A stretch of DNA of 64,000 nucleotides from a virus (IMGVR_UViG_3300032286_000926:39459-103458); one strand, 5' to 3'. Counted from the stretch's first letter, positions 26,669-49,154 are shown. Notes: a model not told the origin generated them from the sequence alone. A program made the numbers and translations.

Positions 26669-26674
26669 AAAGAA

Positions 26675-27010
26675 ATGGCAACCGGCGCACTTAATGCTTT
26701 TAAAACTGTTACCTCACAATTGACAACAGTTAACCAAATTATATACACGGCTCCTGATGGTTATACTGGAGTTGTTTTGATGGCACAAATTAGTAATGTC
26801 TCAAATGTTACATCAAACGCAACATTTATTTTGGATGACGGTTCTGCCAATACAGAACTATTGAAGGGTTTTGAAATACCACGAAACGATGCAATCTCAG
26901 CAACAGTAGGAAAATTAGTTATTGAAACGGGTAACTCAGTTCGTGGTTACGCTAGTGCAAATGGACAACTAAAGATGGTACTAAGCGTTTTGGAATCAGC
27001 TAATGAGTAA
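26675..27010 (+). CDS. Small beta-rich virion protein
   Basis: NAFKT...IYTAP...AQISN...GKLVIETG...VLSVLE pattern. Confidence 0.65.
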   Translation: MATGALNAFKTVTSQLTTVNQIIYTAPDGYTGVVLMAQISNVSNVTSNATFILDDGSANTELLKGFEIPRNDAISATVGKLVIETGNSVRGYASANGQLKMVLSVLESANE

Positions 27011-30000
27011 CAATAGAATACACAGCGGTAAAACAAAAAAGATACCTTCAGCCAATGTAAGTGCTGAACGTTATGAATTTATATCTTTAGGTGAGACCGA
27101 ACCTGATTTAGGTGTGCCTGCTGGCAATTCTTATGTTTTATCTGCCAACACAAATGGTACAAGAGCTTGGGTTCATCCAACTGCTATTCAAGGTACTTCT
27201 GGTTACTCCGGATATTCTGGCACATCAGGTTATTCTGGTTACTCAGGTACTTCAGGTTGGTCTGGTATTTCTGGTTACTCTGGTTATTCTGGTACCTCAG
27301 GATATAGTGGCATATCAGGTTACTCAGGAATCTCCGGCTGGTCAGGTATTAGTGGATATTCTGGTTACTCAGGTATATCAGGATATTCCGGTTACTCAGG
27401 TATTAGTGGATATTCCGGTTACTCAGGAATATCCGGATATTCTGGCATTTCTGGTTACTCTGGTTATTCTGGTGTAACTCCCGAAACAACAACATACACG
27501 GCCAACTCAATTAGTCTTACCAATGGTGTTTATGTTTCTGGTAATGTTGGTAGTGTTCAAACATTCAATGATGGTAATCAATACATTTTAACTGACGGTA
27601 GTAATACTGGTCCAGCCTGGATTGTTGATGTTGGTTTTACTGGTGTTACATCATTCAATCAAGTTGACCTGAACATTCAGTACACGCAAAATTCTGGTCA
27701 TACAGTTTACATTCAACTTTATAATAATAACACAACAACTTGGGACAATATTGGAAGTTATAATGGTCTTTCTGGTTATGTACAATTTCAATTAGGTGTT
27801 ATTGACTATGCGGCCTACATTAATGCTGGTGCCGTATCAGTAAGATTGTATCATAGCAATACAGGTAATCCAGCACATCAATCAAATATTGATTATGTTG
27901 CGATTGTTGATTCTATTTCAGGTGGCCAAGGTCCTAGAGGACTTTCTGGTACTTCAGGTTATTCTGGTTACTCTGGTAAATCTGGTTACTCCGGATATTC
28001 CGGTCAAGCCGGTTCTGCGATTGCAATTAAAGGATCGGTTGCAACATTTACAAGTTTACCTTCAACAGGAAATAATGTTGGTGATATTTACTATGTTACA
28101 GATGTAGGTTCTTTATATGTTTGGAATGGCGCAAGTTGGGATTTGATTGGCCAAATTGCAGGTGCTTCTGGTATCTCAGGTTATTCTGGTTACTCAGGTA
28201 CTTCAGGTTGGTCTGGTATTTCTGGATATTCTGGTTACTCCGGTATTTCAGGTTGGTCTGGTACTTCTGGTTTTTCTGGTAAAGAAGGCCAATTTGGTGG
28301 CGCATCATTCTATAACATCTTTACAACAGGTACTCCAGCTGCCAACGGCCAAATTGCTTTAAATAATGCTAGTGTATCTTTAGCAACAACTTTAACATAT
28401 GACTTTGAAGATAGATTTAGCACCAACGCTTATAGTTTCATACAAACTATCGATGATTCAACATCGTCAATCAAAGGTTCCGTTAAAATTACGGAACAAG
28501 CTAATACATTAAACTTTGTAATTTATGCTATTACAGGTAATCACACTCATGGTGTTACATCTTTTGATATACCAGTTTCTTATCTTTCCGGTCCAACAAC
28601 AGGATTTGCAAATAATGCCAATGTAATAACATCATTCCTTGTAACCGGTGATAGAGGTGATTCTGGTACTTCTGGATTCTCTGGTATCTCCGGATATTCT
28701 GGTTACTCAGGAATCTCCGGTTGGTCTGGTAGATCCGGTTACTCAGGATATTCTGGTATTAGTGGTTACTCCGGTTATTCTGGTATAAGTGGTTGGTCTG
28801 GTATTAGTGGATACTCAGGTTATTCTGGTATTTCTGGTTGGTCTGGTATTTCTGGTTATTCCGGTTACTCCGGCATTTCAGGTTGGTCAGGTATTAGCGG
28901 TTACTCCGGTTATTCTGGAATCTCCGGCTGGTCTGGTATTTCTGGTTATTCCGGATATTCTGGTACTTCAGGCTGGTCTGGCATCTCCGGATATTCTGGT
29001 ACTTCAGGCTGGTCTGGTATAAGTGGTTACTCTGGTTACTCAGGTACTTCAGGCTGGTCTGGTATAAGTGGTTACTCCGGTTACTCAGGTATCTCAGGTT
29101 ATTCTGGTTACTCAGGAATCTCCGGATATTCTGGTTACTCAGGAATCTCCGGCTGGTCTGGTATCTCTGGTTACTCCGGTTATTCTGGTATAAGTGGTTG
29201 GTCTGGTATTAGTGGATACTCAGGTTATTCTGGTATATCAGGTTGGTCAGGTATTAGCGGTTACTCCGGTTACTCAGGCATAAGTGGTTGGTCTGGTATT
29301 TCTGGTTATTCTGGTTATTCTGGAATCTCCGGCTGGTCAGGAATCTCGGGATATTCTGGTTACTCCGGTTATTCTGGAGATTCTGGAATATCAGGTTACT
29401 CCGGATATTCTGGCAGATCCGGTTACTCAGGATATTCTGGTACTTCAGGCTGGTCTGGTATTAGCGGTTACTCCGGTTATTCTGGAATCTCCGGCTGGTC
29501 TGGTATTTCTGGATATTCCGGTTACTCAGGTATATCAGGTTGGTCAGGTATTAGTGGATACTCAGGTTATTCTGGTATCTCAGGTTGGTCAGGTATCTCT
29601 GGTTACTCCGGTTATTCTGGTACCTCAGGCTGGTCTGGTATTTCTGGTTACTCCGGTTATTCTGGTATCTCCGGCTGGTCTGGTATTTCTGGTTATTCCG
29701 GTTACTCAGGCATTTCTGGTTGGTCTGGCATTAGCGGTTACTCCGGTTACTCAGGCATTTCTGGTTGGTCAGGTATCTCTGGTTACTCAGGATATTCTGG
29801 TACCTCAGGCTGGTCTGGTATTTCTGGTTATTCTGGTTATAGTGGTACCTCAGGCTGGTCTGGTATTTCTGGTTACTCCGGTTATTCTGGTATAAGTGGT
29901 TGGTCTGGTATCTCAGGTTATTCTGGTTATTCTGGTATTTCTGGATATTCTGGTTACTCAGGAATCTCTGGCTGGTCTGGTATAAGTGGTTACTCCGGTT

Positions 30001-33000
30001 ATTCTGGTTACTCAGGTATAAGTGGTTGGTCTGGTATTAGTGGATATTCCGGTTATTCTGGTTACTCAGGTGCTTCTGGCCAATCAGGTTTCTCTGGTAA
30101 AGAAGGCCAATTTGGTGGTGCCTCATTCTATAATATATTTGTAACTGGTGCTCCGTCTGGCAATGGCCAAATTGCTTTAAACAATTCCAATTTATCTTTA
30201 GCAACAACATTATCTTACGATTTTGAAGATAGATTCAATTCAAATGTATTTTCATTCATACAAACTATTGATGATTCAACTTCATCAATCAAAGGTTCTG
30301 TTAAAATTACAGAACAAGCAAACAATATAAATTTTGTAATTTATGCTATTACTGGAACTTCAACACAACAAGCAAATGCTTTCATTATACCAGTTTCGTA
30401 TCTTTCTGGTGTAACAACACAATTTGCTATCAATTCAAATGTAATATCATCCTTCATCGTTACTGGTGATAAGGGTGATATTGGTACTTCAGGATACTCT
30501 GGTTATTCTGGTAAATCAGGTTACTCCGGTTATTCTGGAGATTCTGGAATATCAGGTTACTCCGGTTATTCTGGTAGATCCGGTTATTCGGGATATTCTG
30601 GTACCTCAGGCTGGTCAGGTATAAGTGGTTACTCCGGTTACTCTGGCATTTCTGGCTGGTCTGGTATTAGTGGTTATAGTGGATATTCTGGTATTTCAGG
30701 TTGGTCTGGTATTTCTGGATACTCAGGATATAGTGGCATTTCAGGTTGGTCTGGTATTAGTGGATACTCTGGTTACTCAGGTATTTCTGGCTGGTCTGGT
30801 ATTAGTGGATACTCTGGTTACTCAGGTATTTCTGGCTGGTCTGGCATTAGTGGTTATAGTGGATATTCTGGTACTTCAGGTTGGTCTGGTACTTCAGGTT
30901 ACTCAGGTTATAGTGGCACCTCTGGCTGGTCTGGTATTAGTGGATATTCTGGTTACTCCGGCATTTCAGGTTGGTCTGGTATCTCAGGTTATTCTGGTTA
31001 CTCAGGAATCTCCGGCTGGTCTGGTATCTCAGGTTACTCAGGATATTCTGGTACTTCAGGCTGGTCTGGTATTTCTGGTTACTCAGGATATTCTGGTTCT
31101 GGTATCTCAGGTTATTCTGGTTACTCAGGAATCTCCGGCTGGTCTGGTATTAGTGGATATTCTGGTTATTCTGGCATTTCTGGCTGGTCTGGTATTAGTG
31201 GATATTCTGGTTATTCTGGTATCTCAGGTTGGTCTGGCATTAGCGGTTACTCCGGTTATTCTGGAATCTCCGGCTGGTCAGGAATCTCAGGTTATTCTGG
31301 TTACTCAGGAATCTCCGGCTGGTCAGGCATTTCCGGATATTCTGGTTATTCTGGTACTTCAGGTTGGTCTGGTATTTCAGGTTATTCTGGTTATAGTGGT
31401 ATTTCAGGATTCTCAGCTTATTCTGGATATTCCGGTTACTCTGGCCGTTCTGGTTATAGTGGTTACTCTGGTTACTCTGGCCAAGATGGTGGTATGCTTA
31501 CACCAAGCACCTATGTTATGCGTGCCGTTAAAAACGGATCACCACAAACAATTACTTCTAATTCTGATACCGTTGTTACGCTTATAGATGATTTTGATCC
31601 ACAAGGTTGGTTTACATCTAATCAATTTAAACCTACAGTTGCTGGTTATTATAGCCTTAATGCAATGGTTTGGTGGAATGCTGCTTCTGTTACAAATAAC
31701 CAAACCAATATTCAATTTAGAAAAAATGGCAGTACGCAACTTGCAATTGACCAAACACAAACATTAACTGGTTCAGGTTATGCACAGTTATTAGCTACAA
31801 TAACTTATTTTAACGGTACAACTGATTATGTTGAAATTACAGCATACACCGGTAATACAACATCACAAGACATTAATGGTTCAACAAACGGTACATACTT
31901 TACTGCTTCGTTAATTGCGTATGGCCAATCAGGTTGGTCTGGTTATAGTGGATATTCCGGTTATTCTGGTTTGTCTGGTATTTCAGGTTATAGTGGATAT
32001 TCCGGTTCAGGTATTAGTGGTTACTCTGGATATTCTGGTTCAGGTATTAGTGGTTACTCTGGATATTCTGGTTCTGGTATAAGTGGTTATTCTGGTTACT
32101 CAGGAATATCAGGTTGGTCTGGTATTTCTGGTTACTCTGGTTATAGTGGACTTGGATACGCAGGATTAACTTCTTCATCAAATATTACGATTGGCACCGG
32201 TTCAAAAACATTCACAACAAATTTAACTGTTACTCAAACGGCATTTACTGTTGGTAATCGTGTAAGAATTACATACCCAACAAATCCAGTCAATTTCATG
32301 GAAGGTGTTATTACTGGATTTACCACCAATCAATTAGTAGTCAATGTGGACTACACAGGTGGTTCCGGATTATTAACATTATGGAATATTGTTGATGCTG
32401 GTGCAGTAGGAACTTCTGGTTACTCCGGTTATTCTGGTACCTCAGGTGCCTCAGGTATCTCAGGATATTCTGGTTACTCTGGTTCTGGTATTTCAGGATA
32501 TTCTGGTTACTCTGGTTCTGGTATTTCAGGATACTCTGGTTATTCTGGCTCAGGCATTAGTGGTTACTCCGGTTATTCTGGTTCTGGAGTTTCTGGATAT
32601 TCTGGTTATTCTGGTTCAGGAATTTCAGGATACTCCGGTTATTCTGGATCAGGTATCTCTGGTTACTCTGGATATTCCGGTTCAGGTATCTCTGGTTACT
32701 CCGGTTATTCTGGATCAGGCATCTCTGGTTACTCCGGTTACTCTGGTTCTGGTATCTCTGGTTATTCTGGTTATAGTGGTACTTCTGGTATCTCTGGCTA
32801 TTCTGGTTATAGTGGTACTTCTGGTTTCTCTGGTAAAGAAGGCCAGTTTGGTGGCGCATCATTCTACAATACTTTCAGCACAGGTACACCATCTGCCAAC
32901 GGACAAATTGCTTTAAATAACACAAACTTATCTTTAGCAACAACTTTAACATATGACTTTGAAGATAGATTTGGTTCTAATGCTTATAGCTTTATTCAAA

Positions 33001-34295
33001 CAATTGATGATTCAACATCTTCAGTTAAAGGTTCTGTTAAAATTACGGAACAAGCTAATAATATAAACTTTGTAATTTATGCTATTACAGGTAATCACAC
33101 TCATGGTGCCACATCTTTTGATATACCAGTTTCATACTTGTCGGGTGTAACAACACAATTTGCTAATAATGCGAATGTAATAACATCATTCCTTGTAACC
33201 GGTGATAGAGGTGATTCTGGTATTTCCGGTTGGTCTGGTCGTTCTGGTTATTCTGGTTACTCCGGCATCTCTGGTATTTCTGGATATTCTGGATATTCTG
33301 GTTCTGGTATTTCTGGATATTCTGGATATTCTGGTTCTGGTATTTCTGGTTATTCTGGTTATTCTGGATCAGGCATTAGTGGTTACTCCGGTTATTCTGG
33401 TTCAGGTATAAGTGGTTACTCCGGTTATTCTGGTTCTGGTATCTCTGGTTATTCTGGTTACTCTGGTTCGTCTGGTATTTCTGGTTACTCCGGTTATTCT
33501 GGTTCAGGAGTTTCTGGTTACTCTGGTTACTCTGGCTCTGGTATTTCAGGTTATAGTGGATACTCCGGTTCAGGCATTAGTGGATATTCTGGTTACTCTG
33601 GTTCGTCTGGTATTTCAGGTTATAGTGGATATTCTGGTATAAATGGCACAGGTTCTTCAGGAATATCCGGTTATTCTGGTTACTCTGGTACCAATGGTAC
33701 CAATGGCAGTAACGGCAATTCTGGTATTTCTGGTTACTCCGGTTATTCTGGTACCTCAGGTACCTCAGGTATCTCAGGATATTCAGGATATTCTGGTTGG
33801 TCTGGTACAGCTGGACCATCAACTTCGATTAATGCCACAGATGATTCATCAACAACTACATTATATCCAGTCATGGTGGGTGCTGCTGGTTCTGCACAAA
33901 CACCTAAAGTATCAACAACTAAGATTTATTTTAATGCGTCCACAGGAACAATTTACGCAACTGCTAAGTCATTCTTAATTCCTCACCCAACAATTGAAGG
34001 TAAGAAATTAGTATATGGCTCGTTAGAGGGACCTGAGAACGGTGTTTATGTTCGTGGTACTTTAAATGGTGAAAACACAATTGAGTTGCCTGATTATTGG
34101 ACTAAGTTGGTTGATAAAAATACTATTACAGTAAATCTTACCGCAATTGGTAAACCACAAAATCTTTATGTTCAAAACATTACAGACAATGTAATCACTA
34201 TTGCAAACGGTAATTGGTTTAATAAAGATATTAACTGTTACTTTACTGTATATGCAGAACGTATTGATATTGCAAAACTTGTGGTAGAACAATAA
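27003..34295 (+). CDS. Giant (2430 aa) Ser-Gly-Tyr/Ile/Trp repeat fibre with interspersed globular domains, including a C1q/TNF-like domain
   Basis: Eight SGX tracts; three copies of a ~125-aa domain; C1q-like domain at ~31485-31925; C-terminal KSFLIPHP...LEGPENGVYVRG fibre domain. Confidence 0.8.
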   Translation: MSNNRIHSGKTKKIPSANVSAERYEFISLGETEPDLGVPAGNSYVLSANTNGTRAWVHPTAIQGTSGYSGYSGTSGYSGYSGTSGWSGISGYSGYSGTSGYSGISGYSGISGWSGISGYSGYSGISGYSGYSGISGYSGYSGISGYSGISGYSGYSGVTPETTTYTANSISLTNGVYVSGNVGSVQTFNDGNQYILTDGSNTGPAWIVDVGFTGVTSFNQVDLNIQYTQNSGHTVYIQLYNNNTTTWDNIGSYNGLSGYVQFQLGVIDYAAYINAGAVSVRLYHSNTGNPAHQSNIDYVAIVDSISGGQGPRGLSGTSGYSGYSGKSGYSGYSGQAGSAIAIKGSVATFTSLPSTGNNVGDIYYVTDVGSLYVWNGASWDLIGQIAGASGISGYSGYSGTSGWSGISGYSGYSGISGWSGTSGFSGKEGQFGGASFYNIFTTGTPAANGQIALNNASVSLATTLTYDFEDRFSTNAYSFIQTIDDSTSSIKGSVKITEQANTLNFVIYAITGNHTHGVTSFDIPVSYLSGPTTGFANNANVITSFLVTGDRGDSGTSGFSGISGYSGYSGISGWSGRSGYSGYSGISGYSGYSGISGWSGISGYSGYSGISGWSGISGYSGYSGISGWSGISGYSGYSGISGWSGISGYSGYSGTSGWSGISGYSGTSGWSGISGYSGYSGTSGWSGISGYSGYSGISGYSGYSGISGYSGYSGISGWSGISGYSGYSGISGWSGISGYSGYSGISGWSGISGYSGYSGISGWSGISGYSGYSGISGWSGISGYSGYSGYSGDSGISGYSGYSGRSGYSGYSGTSGWSGISGYSGYSGISGWSGISGYSGYSGISGWSGISGYSGYSGISGWSGISGYSGYSGTSGWSGISGYSGYSGISGWSGISGYSGYSGISGWSGISGYSGYSGISGWSGISGYSGYSGTSGWSGISGYSGYSGTSGWSGISGYSGYSGISGWSGISGYSGYSGISGYSGYSGISGWSGISGYSGYSGYSGISGWSGISGYSGYSGYSGASGQSGFSGKEGQFGGASFYNIFVTGAPSGNGQIALNNSNLSLATTLSYDFEDRFNSNVFSFIQTIDDSTSSIKGSVKITEQANNINFVIYAITGTSTQQANAFIIPVSYLSGVTTQFAINSNVISSFIVTGDKGDIGTSGYSGYSGKSGYSGYSGDSGISGYSGYSGRSGYSGYSGTSGWSGISGYSGYSGISGWSGISGYSGYSGISGWSGISGYSGYSGISGWSGISGYSGYSGISGWSGISGYSGYSGISGWSGISGYSGYSGTSGWSGTSGYSGYSGTSGWSGISGYSGYSGISGWSGISGYSGYSGISGWSGISGYSGYSGTSGWSGISGYSGYSGSGISGYSGYSGISGWSGISGYSGYSGISGWSGISGYSGYSGISGWSGISGYSGYSGISGWSGISGYSGYSGISGWSGISGYSGYSGTSGWSGISGYSGYSGISGFSAYSGYSGYSGRSGYSGYSGYSGQDGGMLTPSTYVMRAVKNGSPQTITSNSDTVVTLIDDFDPQGWFTSNQFKPTVAGYYSLNAMVWWNAASVTNNQTNIQFRKNGSTQLAIDQTQTLTGSGYAQLLATITYFNGTTDYVEITAYTGNTTSQDINGSTNGTYFTASLIAYGQSGWSGYSGYSGYSGLSGISGYSGYSGSGISGYSGYSGSGISGYSGYSGSGISGYSGYSGISGWSGISGYSGYSGLGYAGLTSSSNITIGTGSKTFTTNLTVTQTAFTVGNRVRITYPTNPVNFMEGVITGFTTNQLVVNVDYTGGSGLLTLWNIVDAGAVGTSGYSGYSGTSGASGISGYSGYSGSGISGYSGYSGSGISGYSGYSGSGISGYSGYSGSGVSGYSGYSGSGISGYSGYSGSGISGYSGYSGSGISGYSGYSGSGISGYSGYSGSGISGYSGYSGTSGISGYSGYSGTSGFSGKEGQFGGASFYNTFSTGTPSANGQIALNNTNLSLATTLTYDFEDRFGSNAYSFIQTIDDSTSSVKGSVKITEQANNINFVIYAITGNHTHGATSFDIPVSYLSGVTTQFANNANVITSFLVTGDRGDSGISGWSGRSGYSGYSGISGISGYSGYSGSGISGYSGYSGSGISGYSGYSGSGISGYSGYSGSGISGYSGYSGSGISGYSGYSGSSGISGYSGYSGSGVSGYSGYSGSGISGYSGYSGSGISGYSGYSGSSGISGYSGYSGINGTGSSGISGYSGYSGTNGTNGSNGNSGISGYSGYSGTSGTSGISGYSGYSGWSGTAGPSTSINATDDSSTTTLYPVMVGAAGSAQTPKVSTTKIYFNASTGTIYATAKSFLIPHPTIEGKKLVYGSLEGPENGVYVRGTLNGENTIELPDYWTKLVDKNTITVNLTAIGKPQNLYVQNITDNVITIANGNWFNKDINCYFTVYAERIDIAKLVVEQ

Positions 34296-34972: not shown

Positions 34973-35220
34973 TGTATGAACAAAGACAATACTTAATTAT
35001 ACCAACAACAGAATTATTCAAAGTTGATTTTTTACAAATTGAAGAAACTTCTATTGACACGGTAAGAAAATCGGTTGACAACACAAAAACATTTATTAAA
35101 TGGAATGGTGAAGAACCAACTTTTATTTCTGAAATTTTAAATTCAGAAGGACCATATAACCACGATGAAATTTTAGATATTCTTTCTACGGAAGAATGGA
35201 ATTTTATGGAAACTATTTAA
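34972..35220 (+). CDS. Small acidic hypothetical protein associated with LamG genes
   Basis: VDF.QI.ETS..TVRKSVD.TKTFIKW...Y.H.EIL.IL...EW; coupled on both sides. Confidence 0.65.
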   Translation: MYEQRQYLIIPTTELFKVDFLQIEETSIDTVRKSVDNTKTFIKWNGEEPTFISEILNSEGPYNHDEILDILSTEEWNFMETI

Positions 35221-36568: not shown

Positions 36569-36579
36569 TAAATAGAACT

Positions 36580-38250: not shown

Positions 38251-38261
38251 TAGAGGGAAAT

Positions 38262-38546: not shown

Positions 38547-38549
38547 CAC

Positions 38550-41500: not shown

Positions 41501-43568
41501 TACCGGTACTCCTACTTTTAATGCTAACTATAATGGTGGAACAGGCACAAGAATTATTAGCTTTGGTGGTTCTGGTGGCAGCGAAACAAACGCTCCAAAT
41601 ATTAATGTTACCGCAGGAACAGACGGTGTAAGTCTAGCTACAGGCGCAAACTATAACAATATAAATTTTACTGGGTATGCTGGAGCATTAGGTAATTTTG
41701 CAGTTACTATTTTTGGAGATTTAACTATATCAACTGGTATGTCATTAACTGCTGGCTCCGCTACATGGACTTTTGGTGGTACAAGTGGAACAAGTTTAAT
41801 AACTTCCAATGCAAAAACATTTGATTTTCCAGTTACATTCAACGGTGTTGGTGGTACTTGGCAATTAGTAGGAAATTTAACTGTTGGTGATACTCGTACT
41901 GTAACGCTAACCAATGGTGCATTAAACCTTAATAATAATAATTTTTATTGTGGTTTCTTTTCTTCAAGCAACTCAAATACTCGGTCAATTGCTTGGGGTA
42001 CTGGACAATTTTATATAACTGGAAGTAACGGTGGTGCATGGAGAACAGATAATGGTATTGGTTTAACTTTTACAGGAACACCAACAGTAAACCTTACATA
42101 TTCTGGTGCAACGGGTACACGTAGCGTTATTAATGCTAGCGGATCTGGAACTTATAATACCGCAATCAATTTAAATGTAACAGCTGGTACAGATATTATT
42201 ACTGCTGCTGGTAATCCAGGAATGTATAATAATGTAAACTTTACTGGTTTTAGTAACAACTCTACTTGGTTTGGAAATATATTAGGTAATTTAACTTTAT
42301 CTAATACAATGACACAAGTAACAACAAGTTCTTTAAATTTATTTGATTATACTGGTACTCAAAATGTTACAACCAACGGTATTACAGTAGATTCTCCAGT
42401 TACCATTGGCCAAAGAAATACTGTAAGTGGTGCTTCTGGTGATGGAACAACTGCAACAGTAACTTTCGCTAGTTCAATAAATTTTGTTTATCCTGTTGGT
42501 TCAACTGTTGAAATTGTTGGTATAACTCCTGTTGAATATAATGGAACATATACAGTAACCGCATCTACATTAACTTCTGTATCATTTTTAAATTCAACCA
42601 CTACCGCATATACATCAGGTGGAAGTGTTTATTCGGGTTCAACTGTTAATTTGTTGGATGCTTTAACTGTTGGTTCGACAAAAACACTTACATTTAACAG
42701 AGGCACTTTTAATTTAAACAATAACAATGTAACAACTGGACTTTTTAGTAGCAATAACCCCGGCACTCGCACTTTTGCTTTTGGAACCGGCCAATTTTAT
42801 CTTACCGGCACCAATGCAACCATTTGGAATACTAACAATATAACAAATGCTACTATTACCGGTACTCCTATAATTAATGCAACTGGTGCTGGTACGGCAG
42901 GACAAACTAGAGTATTTGCAAACGGTGCAGCTGGAGGTGGTAGTGAAGCCACTTCTTTCGCACTCAATGTTACAGCAGGTTCAGATGCACTAAACATTGG
43001 TAATCCATTTTATTCTAGAGGATATAATTTTACTGGATTTAGTGGAACATTAGGTACAGCTGCAGCTAGTTATTACGTGTTTGGAGACCTTGTTTTTTCT
43101 CCAACTATGTCGTTCTTTGGTGGCAACAATTGGTACATTTGGTCAACTACAACAAATGCCGTTATTAATGTAACAACAAATGGAGTAACATTAACAGATA
43201 ATATTCGTTGTGGTGGAACATCTCCTGTTACCAATACACTTACAGTTAATTTTGTGGACGCTTTAAATTGTACTGTGAATCTTTGGTTTAACAGCGGCAC
43301 AGTTAAATTCTTAGCCGGATCTACAAACACAGTTGGTGGTGTTGTTACAAACGGAACAACACTTAAATACCTAAGAAGTAGCACACCAGGTACCCGTGCT
43401 TTTCTTAGTGATGCTAGTGGTACAAATTATGTGTCTTATTTGGATGTGCAAGATTCATATGCTACCGGTGGTGGTGTATTTGATGCTATTAACCCATCTA
43501 ATGTGGATAGCGGTAACAACCTAGGATGGGGATTCTCTTCCGAACAACCTTTCTTATTTTTCTACTAA
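38550..43568 (+). CDS. Large Thr/Gly/Asn-rich repeat (beta-solenoid-like) adhesin/virion protein
   Basis: ~185-190-aa repeats (WTF...T.DFP..FNGVGGTWQL...LTVG..RTVTLTNG.LNLNN); ends DSGNNLGW.F. Confidence 0.7.
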   Translation: MAISYIGAGAFASGTLTGSTAATLPAGTTAGDLLLLVTSGAATPTTPTGYTLVSAQGAGQFISIYQKIAVPGETAPSITISGSSSRAVILLYRGTGGTYDVVSAYTTSSLISSTTASQTTKFNNDHVLSIYAIAQGTVRAFSTAPTGTTLCTSSPNTASVKGMALYEETKATAGATTARTASVTSGTATWSAVSVSVREPQDLYWTGTGNWSSTTLWKVGSTGGVSMGAPPTQNDNAVFANATGTCTINAASVCNDFTMTSTFAGTIAGTSTLAIYGSYAENSSLGFVWSYSGTITFAATTTGKTISSVNGYIMGQGNNSITFNGTGGGWTLSGGDFGNAATATQGATATFTLTAGSLNMNSCSIYAGIWVNTGTATRSLQSAGGYIWVNSVNTTIVNTTSTGFTAVDTVGYYAQPISSSAGTRTITLGTGYTESNAPYLLIQNAGDTVTVTATSLTKYYLWNTPAYGVSTLTNTALTIYGAAGGGIAFQNDGTSIGSGDYFNFTAGTNAWTFAGTQGLYSILTNAQTLDFPIIFNGVGGTWQLQDALTVGTSRTVTLTNGTINLNNLSLTCGLFSSAVTNTRAIAFGTSGLISTVSSGTVFNLTGTGFTYTGTSKINISNNSATATTVTLNTGFTESNALNVNFTTGSYTLTETATTPTYNTIDFTGFSGTLPNVARVLYGGITTSTGMTLTAGTNATSIRGTSGIDVIKSNAKTFDFPLILDGVGGTFQLFDDLTVGATRSVTLTSGTLDLNNKALSSGTFVSSTTNIRTIAFGTSGSFGCSSGNPGGTILDLTTSTNLTITGTSSFSAYSAATTTTYQFGTSGLNASIILAGTSNINGTVGNLEFQRLSGSPTIGNNNLTILGNFTGTTLTTYTAGTNTWTFAATSGTKTIDSKNITLDFPITFNGVGGTWQLVGNLTVGDTRTVTLTNGALNLNNNNFYCGIFSSNNSNTRSIAFGTGQFYLTGNSTTVLAMGTVTGYSYTGTPTFNANYNGGTGTRIISFGGSGGSETNAPNINVTAGTDGVSLATGANYNNINFTGYAGALGNFAVTIFGDLTISTGMSLTAGSATWTFGGTSGTSLITSNAKTFDFPVTFNGVGGTWQLVGNLTVGDTRTVTLTNGALNLNNNNFYCGFFSSSNSNTRSIAWGTGQFYITGSNGGAWRTDNGIGLTFTGTPTVNLTYSGATGTRSVINASGSGTYNTAINLNVTAGTDIITAAGNPGMYNNVNFTGFSNNSTWFGNILGNLTLSNTMTQVTTSSLNLFDYTGTQNVTTNGITVDSPVTIGQRNTVSGASGDGTTATVTFASSINFVYPVGSTVEIVGITPVEYNGTYTVTASTLTSVSFLNSTTTAYTSGGSVYSGSTVNLLDALTVGSTKTLTFNRGTFNLNNNNVTTGLFSSNNPGTRTFAFGTGQFYLTGTNATIWNTNNITNATITGTPIINATGAGTAGQTRVFANGAAGGGSEATSFALNVTAGSDALNIGNPFYSRGYNFTGFSGTLGTAAASYYVFGDLVFSPTMSFFGGNNWYIWSTTTNAVINVTTNGVTLTDNIRCGGTSPVTNTLTVNFVDALNCTVNLWFNSGTVKFLAGSTNTVGGVVTNGTTLKYLRSSTPGTRAFLSDASGTNYVSYLDVQDSYATGGGVFDAINPSNVDSGNNLGWGFSSEQPFLFFY
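41277..41953 (+). repeat. 107-bp exact direct repeat (41277-41383 and 41847-41953)
   Basis: Identical sequence 570 bp (190 codons) apart. Confidence 0.85.
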
Positions 43569-43614
43569 AATAATTTGCATATATAATAGTATATAATTCT
43601 TTTTTGAGGTGAGT

Positions 43615-45546
43615 ATGAAATATAGTATTGTTATTCCAACATATAATCATTGTGATGATTTATTAAAACCATGTATTGAGTCCATTATTGAACATACCGA
43701 TTTGGCTGATATTGAATTAATCATATCGGCAAACGGATGTAAAGATGGCACATCACAATACCTTGATGAACTAAGGTACAAATTCAATGGATTAAATCTT
43801 GCCAGTAACTTTAAAGTTGCTTGGTCAGACACACCATCAGGTTACCCAAAAGCCACTAACGATGGTATCAAACTTGCAACCACCGATAAAATTGTTCTAT
43901 TAAATAATGACTGTGTTTTGCAAAAACAATCAAAAAATGATTGGTTGAAATTATTAGATAAACCATTTACCGATTTTAAAAAATGCGGTATTTCTTGTGT
44001 AGTTAAAGATTACTCACCTGTAATTAAAATGGATTTTGCCATTTTCTTTTGTGTAATGGTGCATAAAAAACTTTTTGATGAACTTGGTTATCTCAATGAA
44101 GAATATGGAATGGGTTCAAGTGAGGACATTGAATTCTGTTTATTGGCTCAACAAAAAGGTTATGAAATACATCAAGTATTTGAAACACAATTAGGTAAAG
44201 ATTTTTTTGTAGGCAACTTTCCAATTTACCACAAAGGTGAAGGAACAGTACATGATAAAGAATTGGTTCATGGATGGGAAGAACATTTCCAAAATAACAA
44301 ATTAAAATTAGCCAATAAAATTAATACAGAATGGAATAAAATGAATAATGATAAAAAAGTTGGTGTAATTACCACGATATATAATGATGTTGAACACATA
44401 TTGAAAGCTATTGATAGTGTAAAATCTCAAACTTTGAAAAATGTGGTACATTACATTTATGATGATGCTTCTACTGATGGTTTAAATGAAACATTATATA
44501 AATTTAAGAATGATTCAACCGTTAATGTTTTATATGGTGCAGTTAATAAAGGCCAAAGTCATGGTCGTAATGAATTAATCAAAATGGCAATTGCCGATGG
44601 TTGTGAGTATATTGCATTTTTAGATTCTGATGATGTTTGGATTTCACCAACACATTTGCAAGATAGTATAAAACTATTATCTGATGCTGATATTGTTTAT
44701 TCCAAACCAAATTTTGTTAATGAAAATGGTGATATTGTTGATCCAATAAACACTCCAGTACCGCAAATTTTTATTGGTAAACAATTATACCATAATAATT
44801 TTATTTCAATTTCTTCGGTTGTTTGTAAAAAAGATGTTTTAATTGTTAATCAATTTGATGGTGAATTAAATAGCCTTGAAGATTGGGATTTATGGATTCG
44901 ATTGTATGAAAAAGGTTGCAAATTTAAATTTAAAGATACCGTATCAGTTCAATACCTAGTTCGAAACAGTAAACAAGCTTTATTAGGTAATACTAAAATG
45001 CCAATGTTTAACATAAAACATAAACGGTTGCCACAATTAAAATTACATTTGGCTTGCGGATATGATTACAATGATTCATATATTAATGTGGACTTGTATG
45101 CACCAGATGATGCTCGTTGTGATGTTCGTTTTGATGTTGCCAAACTTCCATATGATGATAATTCAGTAGATGAAATTAAAGCATTTCATATTATTGAACA
45201 TTTTCATTTCTTTGAAATTAAAGCAATATTAAATGAATGGTATCGTGTATTAAAACCAGGTGGCCGTTTATACTTAGAAACACCAGATTTCTTAGAAACT
45301 TGCCGTTCATTTGTTGAGGGCAGTCCAACGATGCCACTTGAAGATTGGCGTGTGTTGTTATACGGACAGTTTTTTGCTCATCCATGGATACCAGGTCAAA
45401 CACATAAGTTTTTGTTTACAGAAAATCAATTGAGAGCTAATTTAGAATGGGCAGAATTTAAAACAATTAACCGCCTACCACCAGCATCTAACTATGTGAT
45501 GAATGAAACTGTACATTTATTTTTAAATGTTGAGGCTTTTAAATGA
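43615..45546 (+). CDS. GT2-GT2-methyltransferase fusion
   Basis: SIVIPTYN...LLNND; second GT2 VITTIYN..YDDASTD...GRN...FLDSDD...EDWDLW; C-terminal LHLACG..YINVD..HIIEH..EWYRVLKPGG. The ATG at 43615 is the likely start. Confidence 0.85.
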   Translation: MKYSIVIPTYNHCDDLLKPCIESIIEHTDLADIELIISANGCKDGTSQYLDELRYKFNGLNLASNFKVAWSDTPSGYPKATNDGIKLATTDKIVLLNNDCVLQKQSKNDWLKLLDKPFTDFKKCGISCVVKDYSPVIKMDFAIFFCVMVHKKLFDELGYLNEEYGMGSSEDIEFCLLAQQKGYEIHQVFETQLGKDFFVGNFPIYHKGEGTVHDKELVHGWEEHFQNNKLKLANKINTEWNKMNNDKKVGVITTIYNDVEHILKAIDSVKSQTLKNVVHYIYDDASTDGLNETLYKFKNDSTVNVLYGAVNKGQSHGRNELIKMAIADGCEYIAFLDSDDVWISPTHLQDSIKLLSDADIVYSKPNFVNENGDIVDPINTPVPQIFIGKQLYHNNFISISSVVCKKDVLIVNQFDGELNSLEDWDLWIRLYEKGCKFKFKDTVSVQYLVRNSKQALLGNTKMPMFNIKHKRLPQLKLHLACGYDYNDSYINVDLYAPDDARCDVRFDVAKLPYDDNSVDEIKAFHIIEHFHFFEIKAILNEWYRVLKPGGRLYLETPDFLETCRSFVEGSPTMPLEDWRVLLYGQFFAHPWIPGQTHKFLFTENQLRANLEWAEFKTINRLPPASNYVMNETVHLFLNVEAFK

Positions 45547-46757
45547 AATATAGTATTGTTATTCCAACATATAATCATTGTGATGATTTATTAAAACCAT
45601 GTATTGAATCTATTTTTAAATACACTACATTACAAAATATTGAATTAATTATATCTGCCAATGGTTGTACCGACAATACTAAAGAGTATTTGAAAACATT
45701 AGAACAACAATTTATAAATCTTGGTTTAGAAAATAATTTTAAATTTGCTTGGTCTGATACACCATTAGGTTACCCAAAGGCCACTAATGCTGGTATTAAA
45801 TTGGCAACTACCAATAAGATTGTTTTATTAAATAATGATATTGTTCTATTAGACCAAAAACCAAATCAATGGTTAGATATGTTGGAGTTTTCATTCAATG
45901 ATAATGCCAAGTGTGGTATTTCATGTCCAGTAATTACTTATTTGCCAGAAATTAGAAGAAATTTTGCCATCTTTTTCTGTGTGATGATTGATAGAAAAGT
46001 GTTTGATGCCATTGGATTACTCAACGAAGAATATGGCACCGGTACAGGTGAAGATGTTGAATTTTCTATTGAAGCTGAAAGAGCTGGTTTTGAGATAGTT
46101 GAATGTACCGCAAGTCATACTGCAAAACCTGGACAGCATGGTGGATTATTTCCAATATATCACATTGGCCAAAGAACTTTATATGATGAAAAATTGGTAA
46201 AAAATAGTTCAGAAACAATTAAAGAAAACCATAAAAAAATAGTAGAAAAATATGGTAGTTTGGTTGATGATAGTGAAATTAAATTAAATTTAGGTTGTGG
46301 TTCAAAACTTATGCCAGGATTTGTTAATGTAGACCTTTATAATCCTGATGCTGAATTAAAAATGGATGTTAGAAAACTTAATTTAAAAGATAATACGGCA
46401 CAAGAAGTACATGCATATCATGTATTGGAACATTTTAGTCCTTTTGAAGTTAATGATGTTTTGACCGAATGGTGTAGAGTATTAAAACCTGGCGGCAAAT
46501 TGGTTATGGAGGTGCCTGACATTCTAGAAATGTGTAAACGATTTGAAGAATCGGATAAAAATGAAAGGTACAAATTGTTAAATTGTATCTATGGAACTAC
46601 AATGCCTAAAGGTGTTCCTGGTCATTTGTTTGGATGGTATGATGAAATTTTATCAGACCATTTATATTTAAATGGTTTTGTTAATGTGAATATATATTCT
46701 ATTGAAAGTAACCATTGGGGTTATAATTTACGAGCAGAGGCTATGAAACCGTTATGA
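45543..46757 (+). CDS. GT2-methyltransferase fusion
   Basis: SIVIPTYN, LLNND, GEDVEF; LNLGCG..FVNVD..HVLEH..EWCRVLKPGG. Confidence 0.85.
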   Translation: MKYSIVIPTYNHCDDLLKPCIESIFKYTTLQNIELIISANGCTDNTKEYLKTLEQQFINLGLENNFKFAWSDTPLGYPKATNAGIKLATTNKIVLLNNDIVLLDQKPNQWLDMLEFSFNDNAKCGISCPVITYLPEIRRNFAIFFCVMIDRKVFDAIGLLNEEYGTGTGEDVEFSIEAERAGFEIVECTASHTAKPGQHGGLFPIYHIGQRTLYDEKLVKNSSETIKENHKKIVEKYGSLVDDSEIKLNLGCGSKLMPGFVNVDLYNPDAELKMDVRKLNLKDNTAQEVHAYHVLEHFSPFEVNDVLTEWCRVLKPGGKLVMEVPDILEMCKRFEESDKNERYKLLNCIYGTTMPKGVPGHLFGWYDEILSDHLYLNGFVNVNIYSIESNHWGYNLRAEAMKPL

Positions 46758-47728
46758 GTATATTGTGTTCCATTTCAACTAAAGGTAGATACGACACATA
46801 CTTACCTTTAGCAATTAGTGCAGTAATAAATCAAACTAGACAAGTTGATAAGTTGGTTATTTTTGATGATAATGATGAACCTATTGATTTAAGAGATAAA
46901 CCAATATATAAATTTTTATTTGGAATGTTGGACTCAAAAGGCATATCTTGGGAAGTTTTATATGGTCAAAAAAAAGGACAACATTATAATCACCAAATGG
47001 CCAACCAAATGGGATATGATTGGGTATGGAGAGTTGATGATGATAATATTCCAGAATCAGGTGTATTAGAACAGTTAGCCGCATACATTCAACCAGGCCT
47101 TGGTGCCATTGGTGGACCTGTTTTATTTTCAGATAGAATTATAGATGTTTCTAACTCTACAGGTAAAATAGAAGATATTGATAATGAACCAAATCTTCAA
47201 TGGGGTCATTTTGATTCTTTTAAAACAGTTGACCATTTACATTGTTCATTTTTGTATCGAGCTGGAATAGTAGATTATAATTTAGGTTTATCTAAAGTGG
47301 CTCACCGTGAAGAAACTTTGTTTACTTACCAAATGAAGCAGAAAGGATATAAAATATTTTTAATACCTAATGTAATTACTTGGCATGGTAAAAGTTTGAC
47401 TGGTGGTATTCGTTCAGATGATAATGCTGAATTGTATATGCGTGATGAGTTTATTTTTAGAAACCATCTTAAATATAAAGACAAAACGATTGTGGTTTTA
47501 GATTCAGGTATGGGTGACCATATTGTATTTAAACATGTTTTACCGCATATTAAAAATGCTGAAGTTTTTAGTTGTTATCCAGACATTATTCCAGGTCGCA
47601 GTATTGCTGAAGCTCACTATCTTTTTGGTGACCTTGACACATATAATGTATATGGATATATGAGTAAAAAAAAATGGACAGGTTCATTAGAAAGTGCTTA
47701 TCGTAAAATGTATGGAGTAGATAAATGA
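46754..47728 (+). CDS. GT2-like glycosyltransferase with C-terminal GT9-like N-half (GMGD motif)
   Basis: AVINQT..VIFDD..WRVDDD..REET; then SGMGDHIVF. Confidence 0.75.
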   Translation: MSILCSISTKGRYDTYLPLAISAVINQTRQVDKLVIFDDNDEPIDLRDKPIYKFLFGMLDSKGISWEVLYGQKKGQHYNHQMANQMGYDWVWRVDDDNIPESGVLEQLAAYIQPGLGAIGGPVLFSDRIIDVSNSTGKIEDIDNEPNLQWGHFDSFKTVDHLHCSFLYRAGIVDYNLGLSKVAHREETLFTYQMKQKGYKIFLIPNVITWHGKSLTGGIRSDDNAELYMRDEFIFRNHLKYKDKTIVVLDSGMGDHIVFKHVLPHIKNAEVFSCYPDIIPGRSIAEAHYLFGDLDTYNVYGYMSKKKWTGSLESAYRKMYGVDK

Positions 47729-48159
47729 TTATTATATCACCGTTTTCTAAAAAATTAAGAACAGAAGAACCAAGAGAAAACCCTAAAAACTATCCACATT
47801 GGAAAGAATTAATACCACTCATTAATGAACCAATTATTCAAGTGGGTATTGAAGGTGAAGAACAATTGGTGCCTGATTTTAGAAAGAATTTATCTTTAGA
47901 TGAACTATCAGCACTAATTAAAGAATGTCGTACATGGATTGGGGTAGATAGTTTCTTTCAACACCTCTGTTGGGACCTAAATAAACCAGGTATTGTACTA
48001 TGGGGTCAATCGGATCCTAACATTTACGGCCATCCAGAAAACACTAACCTTCTAAAAGGCAGAGAATATCTAATGGAAAACCAGTTTTTGATGTGGGAGA
48101 TGGTATCTTACAGAAAAGATTGTTTCGTTAGCCCTCAAGAGGTAATCCAGTTCTTATAA
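47725..48159 (+). CDS. GT9 (heptosyltransferase-like) C-terminal domain protein
   Basis: KNYPHW.ELI...IIQVG...LSL.EL..LI....WIGVDSFFQH......PGIVLWG. Confidence 0.75.
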   Translation: MIIISPFSKKLRTEEPRENPKNYPHWKELIPLINEPIIQVGIEGEEQLVPDFRKNLSLDELSALIKECRTWIGVDSFFQHLCWDLNKPGIVLWGQSDPNIYGHPENTNLLKGREYLMENQFLMWEMVSYRKDCFVSPQEVIQFL

Positions 48160-48162: not shown

Positions 48163-48198
48163 GAGTAATATTTCTCTAATCTTCTTTACGGGCAAGAA

Positions 48199-49152: not shown

Positions 49153-49154
49153 AA

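What the first reader, a model, noticed from the sequence alone, without database searches (positions are those of the whole stretch)
27003..48159. Candidate phage-encoded fibre glycosylation system: serine-lined (Gly-Tyr-Ser)n fibres sit beside a GT2/GT9/methyltransferase cluster
Seen: three genes (1502, 27003, 36580) encode hundreds of Ser-Gly-X triplets (X mostly Tyr, Ile or Trp). Read as Gly-X-Y, Ser is almost invariant at Y and Pro is nearly absent. The fibre block is followed directly by four coupled genes carrying four GT2 domains, two SAM-methyltransferase domains and a split GT9-like enzyme, all inside the late virion module before gp13. Established: Pro-poor collagens can be stabilised by glycosylation at the Y position (glycosylated Thr in Riftia cuticle collagen), B. 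anthracis BclA collagen carries O-methylated glycans, and giant viruses glycosylate their own fibres. Inference: the phage builds methylated O-glycans on the Y-position serines, giving glycan-coated fibres for stability, adhesion or shielding. No nucleotide-sugar synthesis genes are in this window, so donors would come from the host or elsewhere in the genome.
Basis: partly seen in the sequence, partly recalled or inferred. Interest (0 to 1): 0.9.

Follow-up and report, generated by a model that had tools for sequence, protein, structure and literature searches.

The report
Phage serine-collagen fibres with glycosylation cassette
An uncultured T4-like freshwater phage has three proline-free Gly-Tyr/Ile/Trp-Ser collagen-like fibre genes and a phage-only set of sugar-adding and methylating enzymes that accompanies such fibres in many other phages, so it probably sugar-coats its fibres, though no chemistry shows this.

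Summary
Observation confirmed. Three genes (1502, 27003, 36580) hold 672 Gly-X-Y triplets. Y is Ser in 72-92% of them, X is mostly Tyr, Ile or Trp, and Pro makes up 1-2% of residues. Genes 43615-48159 encode GT2-GT2-methyltransferase, GT2-methyltransferase, a GT-A enzyme with a short GT9 N-lobe stub, and a 144-aa GT9 C-lobe. The two GT9 pieces are predicted to dock, and they keep the heptosyltransferase key residues.

Of 56 cassette loci found through the enzyme, 37 have a Gly-X-Ser/Thr collagen gene within 6 kb upstream and 32 have it directly adjacent. Downstream the figure is 5 of 59. None of 79 related T4-like loci lacking the cassette has such a gene. X varies between lineages (Tyr, Phe, Trp, Ile, Thr, Glu, Pro), but Y is always Ser or Thr. 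The cassette is almost absent from 185,579 cellular genomes.

Against: within this T4-like lineage the trait changed only 2-3 times, and some SGY contigs show no cassette. A 1672-aa non-collagen gene lies between fibre and cassette here. The 19352-21559 trio does not travel with SGY fibres. No TibC-family match was found.

This scan has reported the same pairing on at least 32 other genomes. I rate it a new variant of a known kind.

The parts
1502..3928 (+). SGY collagen-like fibre 1 (808 aa). It has 166 Gly-X-Ser triplets and a C-terminal Peptidase_S74 intramolecular chaperone.
25337..27010 (+). Tail-fibre-type protein (443 aa) and a small 111-aa protein that precede the giant SGY fibre. The same pair precedes SGY fibres in other phage loci (L020, L113, L114, L105).
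27003..34295 (+). Giant SGY collagen-like fibre 2 (2430 aa). It has 452 Gly-X-Ser triplets interrupted by three copies of a ~110-aa globular domain and other non-repeat domains.
34295..36568 (+). Three paralogous Laminin_G_3 (concanavalin-A-like lectin fold) proteins of 225-229 aa between the SGY fibre genes.
   Evidence: Seven such genes precede the cassette in locus L116.
36580..38250 (+). SGY fibre 3 (556 aa), built mostly of the 11-residue unit SGISGYSGYSG.
38550..43568 (+). 1672-aa Thr/Ser/Gly/Asn-rich protein (29% Ser+Thr) with ~190-aa internal repeats and no Pfam family. It is the gene directly upstream of the cassette and a second candidate acceptor.
43615..45546 (+). GT2 - GT2 - class I SAM methyltransferase fusion (643 aa), soluble.
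45543..46757 (+). GT2 - class I SAM methyltransferase fusion (404 aa).
46754..47728 (+). 'GTc': a GT-A glycosyltransferase (invariant DDD at residues 95-97) fused to an ~80-aa stub that starts like a GT9 N-lobe (VVLDxGxGDHxVF, invariant D255).
47725..48159 (+). 'GT9f': a 144-aa stand-alone GT9 C-lobe. Invariant K21, E45, D75 and H80 align with WaaC K192, E222, D261 and H266. It is predicted to dock on residues 252-312 of GTc.
48199..50042 (+). gp13- and gp14-like neck proteins. They mark the downstream border of the cassette. A TATAAATA late-promoter motif lies at 48155.
19352..21559 (+). Separate trio: methyltransferase, TPR + GT9-fold glycosyltransferase, CxxCxxCC protein. It is not linked to SGY fibres by co-occurrence.

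Best explanation
Genes 43615-48159 form a phage-specific, cytoplasmic protein O-glycosylation cassette. Its preferred acceptors are the Y-position Ser (Thr in other lineages) hydroxyls of proline-free collagen-like virion fibres.

Inferred mechanism. During late infection the soluble enzymes act on newly made fibre chains, using host nucleotide sugars and SAM. One enzyme starts the glycan on Ser. The best candidate is the two-piece GT9-like enzyme (GTc C-terminal stub plus GT9f), which keeps the ADP-heptose-binding and catalytic residues of heptosyltransferase I. The GT-A domain of GTc is the alternative. The three GT2 domains then extend the glycan, and the fused methyltransferases O-methylate a sugar. 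The result would be trimeric rods whose exposed Tyr/Ile/Trp side chains alternate with short methylated glycans.

What is shown: the repeat chemistry, the domain content, the predicted docking of the GT9 halves, and the gene association across phages. What is inferred: the acceptor, the donor, the order of steps and any effect on stability or adsorption.
For: (1) Directional linkage. Among 80 loci found through the GT2-GT2-MT protein, 56 have at least 1.5 kb of upstream sequence. Of these, 37 carry a Gly-X-Ser/Thr collagen gene (at least 10 triplets) within 6 kb upstream and 32 within 300 bp. Downstream the count is 5 of 59.
(2) The pairing recurs in at least 7 of 14 different downstream gene contexts: gp13/gp14, nrdA-type and others.
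(3) Joint absence. 79 loci of the closest gp13 relatives (751 kb of fibre and neck region) have neither cassette nor such collagen. Neither do the five longest of those contigs, 312 kb in total.
(4) Genome-level co-occurrence. Two cassette genomes without an adjacent collagen gene carry Gly-X-Ser/Thr genes elsewhere: G036 (335 kb, 95% complete) and G026. The one complete SGY genome, G017, has the cassette 6.6 kb beyond its SGY genes. GT9f is present in 20 of 34 SGY-ascertained records and in 7 of the 9 that are at least 55% complete.
(5) X varies between lineages (Tyr, Phe, Trp, Ile, Val, Thr, Glu, Pro) while Y stays Ser or Thr.
(6) GTc was found in only 7 short MAG contigs, of inconsistent taxonomy and phage-like content, among 185,579 species genomes. 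One of them again shows a collagen gene followed by the cassette.
(7) The enzymes have no transmembrane segment, and the genes are translationally coupled inside the virion module.
(8) GT9f with GTc: ipSAE 0.83 against a best control of 0.01. That mark was reached by 58 of 80 solved complexes and 2 of 110 mismatched pairs. The runs agree in 100% of contacts and the partner's pLDDT is 92. The pass may reflect likeness to the two lobes of solved GT9 enzymes. Invariant K21, E45, D75 and H80 align with WaaC K192, E222, D261 and H266 (residue roles from PMC3559599).
(9) The GT2-methyltransferase fusion is kept although the methyltransferase family is swapped (class I versus FkbM/RfbT-like) in distant cassettes.
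(10) Precedents. SgtA, encoded next to bclA3, puts O-GlcNAc on Thr/Ser of collagen repeats (PMC7157674). Chlorovirus A064R is a 638-aa GT-GT-methyltransferase that builds the methylated end of the capsid glycan (PMC9614988).
Against: There is no chemical or expression evidence.

In the gp13 tree the cassette-bearing T4-like loci form one clade of 12. That allows only 2-3 independent changes, and the sign test cannot reach significance. Much of the association could therefore be shared descent, or joint carriage in a mobile host-range block.

19 of the 56 cassette loci show no collagen gene within 6 kb upstream. Some of these follow the major capsid gene or LamG genes instead.

Some SGY contigs have no cassette in up to 141 kb of sequence: G001, G007, G025 and G033, all incomplete.

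In this window a 1672-aa non-collagen protein separates the SGY genes from the cassette.

No T4-type late promoter motif lies directly upstream of 43615.

The GT9f domain also occurs fused to methyl- and pyruvyl-transferases that lack an N-lobe. It may therefore be a docking module and not half of an active site.

A published reading of glycosyltransferases in the fibre region of related aquatic myophages is host O-antigen modification (PMC7029224).
Confidence: 0.55

Rival explanations
1. The cassette modifies the host cell envelope (LPS core, O-antigen or capsule) during infection. That could block superinfection or stop progeny from sticking to debris. It sits among fibre genes only because host-recognition functions cluster there.
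For: This is the published reading for glycosyltransferases in the host recognition cluster of pelagimyophages (PMC7029224). The nearest named relatives of the GT2 and GT9 domains are polysaccharide and LPS enzymes such as TuaG, EpsD, PglI and WaaC, all far below family cut-offs. The FkbM domain in distant cassettes weakly resembles the O-antigen methyltransferase RfbT.
Against: The cassette is nearly absent from cellular genomes. It tracks one fibre shaft chemistry, Gly-X-Ser/Thr, and is absent from related phages with other fibres. It lies in the virion gene block, and no flippase, polymerase or initiating phosphoglycosyl transferase was seen in the window ORFs scanned.
Confidence: 0.15
2. 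There is no enzyme-substrate relation. Fibre genes and cassette are simply co-inherited and co-transferred in a hypervariable block. The cassette's real target is another virion protein (capsid, or the 1672-aa Thr-rich protein), a small molecule or a free glycan. The Ser at Y then serves triple-helix hydration or packing without modification.
For: Few independent changes occur within the T4-like lineage. Some cassettes sit next to the major capsid gene or to LamG genes with no collagen nearby. Here a Thr-rich beta-helix-like protein is the direct neighbour. Some SGY contigs lack the cassette.
Against: The collagen gene lies upstream in 37 of 56 loci but downstream in only 5 of 59. The pairing persists across at least 7 downstream contexts. 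Collagen genes are found elsewhere in the genome where they are not adjacent.
Confidence: 0.22
3. The enzymes glycosylate or methylate phage DNA to evade restriction.
For: T-even phages glucosylate DNA, and virus glycosyltransferases that hypermodify DNA are known (cited in PMC12619734).
Against: The cassette lies in the virion block and is linked to fibre genes, not to replication genes. The families are GT-A/GT2 and GT9-like, and no base-hydroxymethylase domain was seen in the scanned ORFs.
Confidence: 0.03

Closest known systems
SgtA / BclA3 of Clostridioides difficile, and BclA of Bacillus anthracis with its rhamnose-anthrose glycans
   Same: A collagen-like surface fibre has a hydroxyl residue at the Y position. 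A GT-A/GT2-type glycosyltransferase gene lies next to the fibre gene. SgtA adds beta-O-GlcNAc to Thr, and to Ser in variant peptides, of the collagen repeats (PMC7157674). BclA glycans carry O-methylated sugars (Daubenspeck 2004, cited in PMC11923368).
   Different: That host is a spore-forming bacterium, not a phage. SgtA carries TPR repeats and the cassette enzymes do not. The triplets there are Pro-containing GPT-type, whereas here X is Tyr, Ile or Trp and Pro is almost absent. The cassette adds a split GT9-like enzyme and fused methyltransferases.
Chlorovirus PBCV-1 A064R (638 aa: GT - GT - methyltransferase)
   Same: A virus-encoded, soluble, three-domain enzyme of the same order and size as the 643-aa protein here. 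It builds and 2-O-methylates the end of the glycan on a virion structural protein (PMC9614988).
   Different: No sequence relation was detected. A064R extends an N-glycan on the capsid of a eukaryotic virus and has different GT families (GT-A subfamily 34-like and a new family).
Bacterial autotransporter heptosyltransferases TibC/Aah (BAHT, TIGR04414) and LPS heptosyltransferases WaaC/WaaF (GT9)
   Same: GT9f aligns with the whole C-lobe of WaaC (E 1.6e-4) and keeps its K192, E222, D261 and H266 equivalents. From my own knowledge of the family, BAHT enzymes are the known GT9-type enzymes that O-glycosylate Ser in repetitive surface proteins in the cytoplasm. They are therefore the nearest mechanistic model for an initiating step.
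   Different: There is no TIGR04414 match in this contig or in 34 SGY records. The enzyme is in two polypeptides with a much shortened N-lobe fused to a GT-A enzyme. All NCBIfam heptosyltransferase scores are far below cut-off.
Mycobacteriophage virion glycosylation (Freeman et al. 2023, as cited in PMC12619734)
   Same: Phage-encoded glycosyltransferases decorate the phage's own virion proteins with O-glycans.
   Different: The acceptors there are C-terminal tails of the capsid and tail-tube subunits of actinobacteriophages. There is no collagen-like fibre, no GT9-like part and no fused methyltransferase. I could not read the primary paper.
Glycosyltransferases in the 'host recognition cluster' of pelagimyophages and cyanomyophages (PMC7029224)
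   Same: Aquatic T4-like phages have glycosyltransferase genes interspersed with tail-fibre genes, including proteins with collagen triple-helix repeats and concanavalin-A domains.
   Different: That paper reads them as host O-antigen modifiers and does not link them to the collagen-like proteins. The commonest family there is GT8.

Membership tests
Collagen triple-helix repeat proteins (PF01391) | Gly at every third residue over long uninterrupted runs | tested here: met
   Runs reach 164 triplets in the 27003 protein, and there are 672 triplets in all. The 36580 protein and the C-terminal third of the 27003 protein break register every 11 residues at G-S-G.
Collagen triple-helix repeat proteins (PF01391) | Pfam model above its gathering score | tested here: met
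   490 bits (27003 protein) and 206 bits (1502 protein) against a cut-off of 27.2. The 36580 protein is just below at 25.2 bits.
Collagen triple-helix repeat proteins (PF01391) | Imino-acid (Pro/Hyp) content in X and Y that stabilises the helix | tested here: not met
   Pro is 1.2-2% of residues, and at most 2 Pro occur at X in any protein.
Collagen triple-helix repeat proteins (PF01391) | Trimerisation and actual triple-helix formation | not testable with these tools
   The only indirect evidence is a Peptidase_S74 trimerising chaperone at the C-terminus of the 1502 protein. No trimer was folded.
Glycosyltransferase family 2 (PF00535, GT-A fold) | Pfam match above cut-off, plus a DxD motif | tested here: met
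   Two domains in 43615-45546 (116.7 bits) and one in 45543-46757 (57.4 bits). The 46754-47728 protein scores 21.9 bits against 23.3, but it has an invariant DDD and a GT-A fold model.
Glycosyltransferase family 9 (PF01075, heptosyltransferases) | Sequence match to the family model | tested here: met
   32.7 bits against a cut-off of 22, covering profile positions 172-218 only. The family profile built here matches WaaC residues 180-292 at E 1.6e-4.
Glycosyltransferase family 9 (PF01075, heptosyltransferases) | Two Rossmann lobes (GT-B) in one chain of about 320-350 aa | tested here: not met
   The C-lobe is a separate 144-aa protein. The N-lobe is only an ~80-aa stub at the end of the GT-A protein. 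The two are predicted to dock in trans.
Glycosyltransferase family 9 (PF01075, heptosyltransferases) | Key residues D13, K192, E222, D261 and H266 of WaaC, and the signature D(T/S)(G/A)xxH | tested here: met
   K21, E45, D75 and H80 are invariant in 57 sequences and align with K192, E222, D261 and H266. The signature reads DSFxQH, with Phe in place of Gly/Ala. The D13 equivalent (D255 of GTc, GxGDH) rests on motif likeness only.
Glycosyltransferase family 9 (PF01075, heptosyltransferases) | NCBIfam heptosyltransferase I/II/III equivalog cut-offs | tested here: not met
   At best 26.9 bits against a cut-off of 185.
BAHT protein heptosyltransferases (TibC/Aah, TIGR04414) | Match to the family model | tested here: not met
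   No hit at E up to 0.1 for the cassette proteins, none in the 103-kb contig at E up to 1, and none in 34 SGY records.
BAHT protein heptosyltransferases (TibC/Aah, TIGR04414) | Transfer of heptose to Ser of a repetitive surface protein | not testable with these tools
   This needs biochemistry.
SgtA-type collagen O-GlcNAc transferase | GT-A catalytic domain followed by TPR repeats | tested here: not met
   No TPR was found in the four cassette proteins. The only TPR enzyme in the window (19893-21191) has a GT9 fold and does not co-occur with SGY fibres.
SgtA-type collagen O-GlcNAc transferase | Glycosyltransferase gene adjacent to a collagen-like gene with Thr/Ser at Y | tested here: met
   32 of 56 loci are directly adjacent, and Y is Ser or Thr in all lineages examined. 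In this window the two are 5.4 kb apart.
A064R-type GT-GT-methyltransferase | Three-domain order in one ~640-aa soluble protein | tested here: met
   no transmembrane segment.
A064R-type GT-GT-methyltransferase | Sequence homology to A064R | tested here: inconclusive
   The A064R domain-1 structure is not among the PDB sequence matches at E up to 0.01. No direct comparison was possible.

The most novel reading that the evidence does not exclude
A widespread, phage-only 'glyco-collagen' system. A heptosyltransferase-like enzyme split into two polypeptides starts O-glycans on the Y-position Ser/Thr of proline-free collagen-like fibres. GT2-methyltransferase fusions then finish them with methylated sugars. 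The glycans take over the stabilising and solubilising role of hydroxyproline, possibly by stacking on the neighbouring Tyr, Trp or Phe. This would give sugar-coated fibres in many aquatic T4-like and jumbo phages.
Probability: 0.35. Interest if true: 0.85.

Novelty: new variant of a known kind. Interest (0 to 1): 0.7.

Why it matters
In the papers I could search or cite, phage-made virion glycosylation has been shown experimentally only for mycobacteriophages. Glycosyltransferases among the fibre genes of aquatic myophages have been read as host-surface modifiers.

If this cassette decorates the fibres, three things follow. Many uncultured freshwater and marine phages would carry glycan-coated adsorption organelles. 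A large class of 'auxiliary metabolic' glycosyltransferase annotations would need re-reading. And proline-free Gly-aromatic-Ser collagen would become a new model for how glycans can replace hydroxyproline.

The hypothesis is directly testable by co-expression and mass spectrometry.

Tried and rejected
- Megablast of 43609-53968 against isolate phages gave no match. tblastn of the GT2-GT2-MT protein found only weak partial GT2 hits in isolates. No cultured relative is therefore available.
- TATAAATA late-promoter scan: 6 sites, fewer than the 10 expected by chance. One lies upstream of gp13 and none directly upstream of 43615, so expression timing is unresolved.
- gp13 tree with independent pairs: only 2-3 pairs, median p = 0.5. 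It cannot prove correlated evolution inside the T4-like lineage.
- TibC/Aah family search was negative in the cassette proteins, the contig and 34 SGY records.
- Profile-profile comparison of GTc and GT9f with the TPR-GT9 protein was colinear but weak: probability 4%, E about 0.01.
- I looked for a natural GTc-GT9f fusion. GT9f is fused to other enzymes (FkbM methyltransferase, pyruvyl transferase, other GT2), but P0140 is not a GTc fusion.
- The PDB sequence search with the GTc profile gave only SpsA at E 0.47.
- The Freeman 2023 paper is not held.
- I considered Tyr as the acceptor, as in S-layer Tyr O-glycans. I rejected it as the common acceptor because many cassette-linked fibres have Phe, Ile, Thr, Glu or Pro at X and no Tyr.
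- No fibre trimer was folded, because the single complex job went to the GT9 halves.

Full report
**Context.** The window is bases 39459-103458 of a 103,458-bp IMG/VR viral contig estimated to be 61% complete. Its genes are those of a T4-like myovirus: gp13, gp14, gp15, terminase, sheath, tube, portal, prohead protease, scaffold and major capsid protein, with gp5, gp6 and gp32 further upstream. The large terminase is only 48% identical to that of Synechococcus myophages. Nothing similar exists among isolate phages at the DNA level. The lineage is therefore uncultured, and its relatives come from metagenome samples.

- The three proteins contain 166, 452 and 54 Gly-X-Y triplets in runs of at least four.
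- Ser occupies Y in 92%, 91% and 72% of them. Tyr, then Ile, then Trp occupy X.
- Pro is 1-2% of all residues.
- Ser is encoded by six codons, including 11% AGY. The repeat is thus old and kept by selection on the protein.
- Pfam's Collagen model matches strongly, and the 1502 protein ends in the Peptidase_S74 chaperone typical of trimeric fibres.
- The 36580 protein and the C-terminal third of the 27003 protein use an 11-residue unit, SGISGYSGYSG. Its G-S-G breaks the Gly-X-Y register at each unit, so a canonical uninterrupted triple helix is not certain for those parts.

**The enzyme genes are as described.** They encode GT2-GT2-methyltransferase, GT2-methyltransferase, a weak GT2 and a GT9 fragment, with overlapping start and stop codons.
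- The weak GT2 ('GTc') gives a confident GT-A fold model with pLDDT 94.
- All four proteins lack hydrophobic segments.
- One correction: the immediate upstream neighbour is a 1672-aa Thr/Ser-rich repeat protein without Gly-X-Y repeats, so 5.4 kb separates the last SGY gene from the enzymes.

**The split GT9 enzyme.**
- The last ~80 residues of GTc begin with VVLDxGxGDHxVF, which resembles the start of the GT9 N-lobe.
- A profile of the 144-aa protein ('GT9f') aligns with the complete C-lobe of heptosyltransferase I, residues 180-292, at E 1.6e-4.
- Its invariant K21, E45, D75 and H80 fall on K192, E222, D261 and H266. Together with D13, these are the residues reported to bind ADP-heptose and catalyse transfer (PMC3559599).
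- The complex predictor places GT9f on GTc residues 252-312. The ipSAE is 0.83 against 0.01 for the best of three controls. That mark was reached by 58 of 80 solved complexes and 2 of 110 mismatched pairs. The three runs agree in 100% of contacts and the partner's pLDDT is 92.
- Because the interface mimics the two lobes of solved GT9 enzymes, the pass may reflect that likeness.
- GT9f-like domains are also fused to FkbM methyltransferases, pyruvyl transferases and other GT2 enzymes in other metagenome proteins. A docking role cannot be excluded.
- No TibC/Aah (BAHT) family match exists in the cassette proteins, the contig or 34 related records.

**Test of co-occurrence, starting from the enzyme.** Relatives of the GT2-GT2-methyltransferase protein in IMG/VR gave 80 loci. 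All carry a conserved cassette: one or two GT2-methyltransferase proteins, then GTc, then GT9f.
- Of the 56 loci with at least 1.5 kb of upstream sequence, 37 have a Gly-X-Ser/Thr collagen gene of at least 10 triplets within 6 kb upstream, and 32 within 300 bp.
- Only 5 of 59 have one downstream.
- The pairing is seen in at least 7 of 14 classes defined by the first downstream gene. These include T4-like neck genes and, in large phages, a boundary with a gene that starts like the ATP-cone of ribonucleotide reductase (my reading of its N-terminal sequence).
- In distant cassettes the methyltransferase fused to GT2 is of another family (FkbM/RfbT-like), yet the fusion is retained.

**Test starting from the fibre.** A DNA pattern for GYSGYSGISGYSGY found 60 loci on about 50 viral contigs.
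- GT9f is present in 20 of the 34 longer records and in 7 of the 9 that are at least 55% complete.
- One exception, G022, ends inside its SGY gene. Its complete relative G017 has the cassette 6.6 kb further on.

**Negative control.** The 79 closest relatives of this phage's gp13 (65-79% identity; 751 kb of fibre and neck region) contain neither the cassette nor any Gly-X-Ser/Thr run. The same holds for the whole of the five longest of those contigs.

Conversely, two cassette genomes without an adjacent collagen gene carry large Gly-X-Ser/Thr genes elsewhere. These are G036 (335 kb, 95% complete) and G026.

**Repeat chemistry across lineages.** X differs widely: Tyr/Ile/Trp here, Phe/Ile in L099, Thr/Ile/Phe/Val/Trp in L140, Phe/Glu/Thr in L106, and Pro in L148. 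Y is Ser, or Thr in L148 (138 of 172 triplets) and for 10-20% of triplets in L118-L141. L148 is a GPT-type collagen with an S74 domain directly upstream of the cassette.

**Distribution.** GTc was found in only 7 contigs among one genome each of 185,579 prokaryote species. All seven are MAG contigs (1.8-39 kb) assigned to unrelated phyla. They carry the same cassette, and one has a 967-aa Gly-X-Ser gene directly upstream. The cassette is thus effectively phage-specific. That fits poorly with a recently borrowed host LPS function.

**Limits.**
- In the gp13 tree the cassette-bearing T4-like loci form one clade of 12 with a single cassette-free, collagen-free member. There are only 2-3 independent changes, all concordant but too few for a test.
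- 19 of 56 cassette loci have no collagen gene nearby. Some follow the major capsid gene or a run of LamG genes.
- Incomplete SGY contigs of 43-141 kb lack the cassette.
- No late-promoter motif sits in front of 43615, and no expression data could be obtained.
- A published interpretation of such glycosyltransferases is modification of the host O-chain (PMC7029224).

**The 19352-21559 trio.** The 432-aa protein is a TPR domain joined to a GT9-fold domain.
- VIA-align gives Z 15.1, rmsd 3.5 Å over 226-231 aligned residues to 3tov and 1psw. TibC 4rap scores Z 14.1 (rmsd 3.3 Å, 233 aligned) and WaaC Z 13.5 (rmsd 3.8 Å, 221 aligned).
- The whole-chain Foldseek hits are TPR + GT-B protein O-glycosyltransferases, SPY and OGT.
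- It looks like a protein glycosyltransferase and has 719 relatives at E ≤ 1e-5; the 120 best listed are 71-95% identical.
- It occurs in only 2 of 34 SGY records and is absent from the complete SGY genome. It is therefore a separate matter.

**Conclusion.** I put the probability at about 0.55 that the cassette O-glycosylates the Ser/Thr of these fibres in the cytoplasm and methylates the glycan.
- The closest known mechanisms are SgtA/BclA3 and BclA for the acceptor type (PMC7157674), A064R for the GT-GT-methyltransferase design in a virus (PMC9614988), and GT9/BAHT enzymes for the possible initiating step.
- The cassette is not a demonstrable member of the BAHT or SgtA families.
- The same pairing has been reported by this scan on at least 32 other genomes. 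Those notes gave me the TibC and SgtA leads, both of which I tested here.

Noticed in passing
window 19893-21191 (with 19352-19915 and 21152-21559): A TPR + GT9-fold glycosyltransferase with an OGT/SPY-like layout, flanked by a methyltransferase and a CxxCxxCC protein. It has 719 relatives at E ≤ 1e-5 (the 120 best listed are 71-95% identical) but occurs in only 2 of 34 SGY-fibre records. It may be a second, independent protein-glycosylation system with an unknown acceptor, perhaps the RCC1 proteins just upstream.
   Followed up: partly
window 36580-38250 and 27003-34295 (protein residues ~1800-2220): A strict 11-residue period, SGISGYSGYSG. The G-S-G removes one residue from the Gly-X-Y register at every unit. 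A regular interruption this frequent is unusual for a collagen helix and may mean a different or kinked structure.
   Followed up: no
window 38550-43568: A 1672-aa protein with 19% Thr, 29% Ser+Thr, ~190-aa internal repeats (…FDFPxxFNGVGGTWQL…LTNGxLNLNN…) and no Pfam family. It lies directly upstream of the cassette and may be a beta-helical fibre and an alternative glycan acceptor.
   Followed up: partly
window 34295-36568; locus L116: Three tandem Laminin_G_3 (ConA-like lectin) genes lie between the SGY fibres. In L116 seven such genes directly precede the cassette in place of a collagen gene.
   Followed up: no
proteins P0125-P0150: The 145-aa GT9 C-lobe domain occurs fused to FkbM methyltransferases, polysaccharide pyruvyl transferases, Methyltransf_24 and various GT2 enzymes. 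It behaves as a portable module that may recruit tailoring enzymes.
   Followed up: partly
loci L148, L099, L140: The methyltransferase fused behind GT2 is class I (Methyltransf_11/23) in some cassettes, FkbM/RfbT-like in others, and both are present in L140. The domain has been swapped while the fusion is kept.
   Followed up: partly
window 12643-19301: Four RCC1-propeller proteins in a row. The first carries a weak gp38-adhesin-like C-terminal region (PF05268, E 1.5e-4).
   Followed up: no
window 51834-52268: A ferritin/Dps-like gene (PF00210, E 8.8e-24) sits between the small and large terminase genes.
   Followed up: no
contig C1:4008-11185 (loci L007): The upstream non-structural region holds further glycosyltransferases (two GT2 and a GT17-like), plus a DUF6445 protein and a ClpP protease. 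The phage carries at least nine GT domains in 103 kb.
   Followed up: no
loci L019, L023, L027, L028, L031, L049, L058, L067: A second class of SGY fibre genes lies two genes from the large terminase gene in other, probably smaller, phages. No cassette is present in the sequenced part.
   Followed up: no
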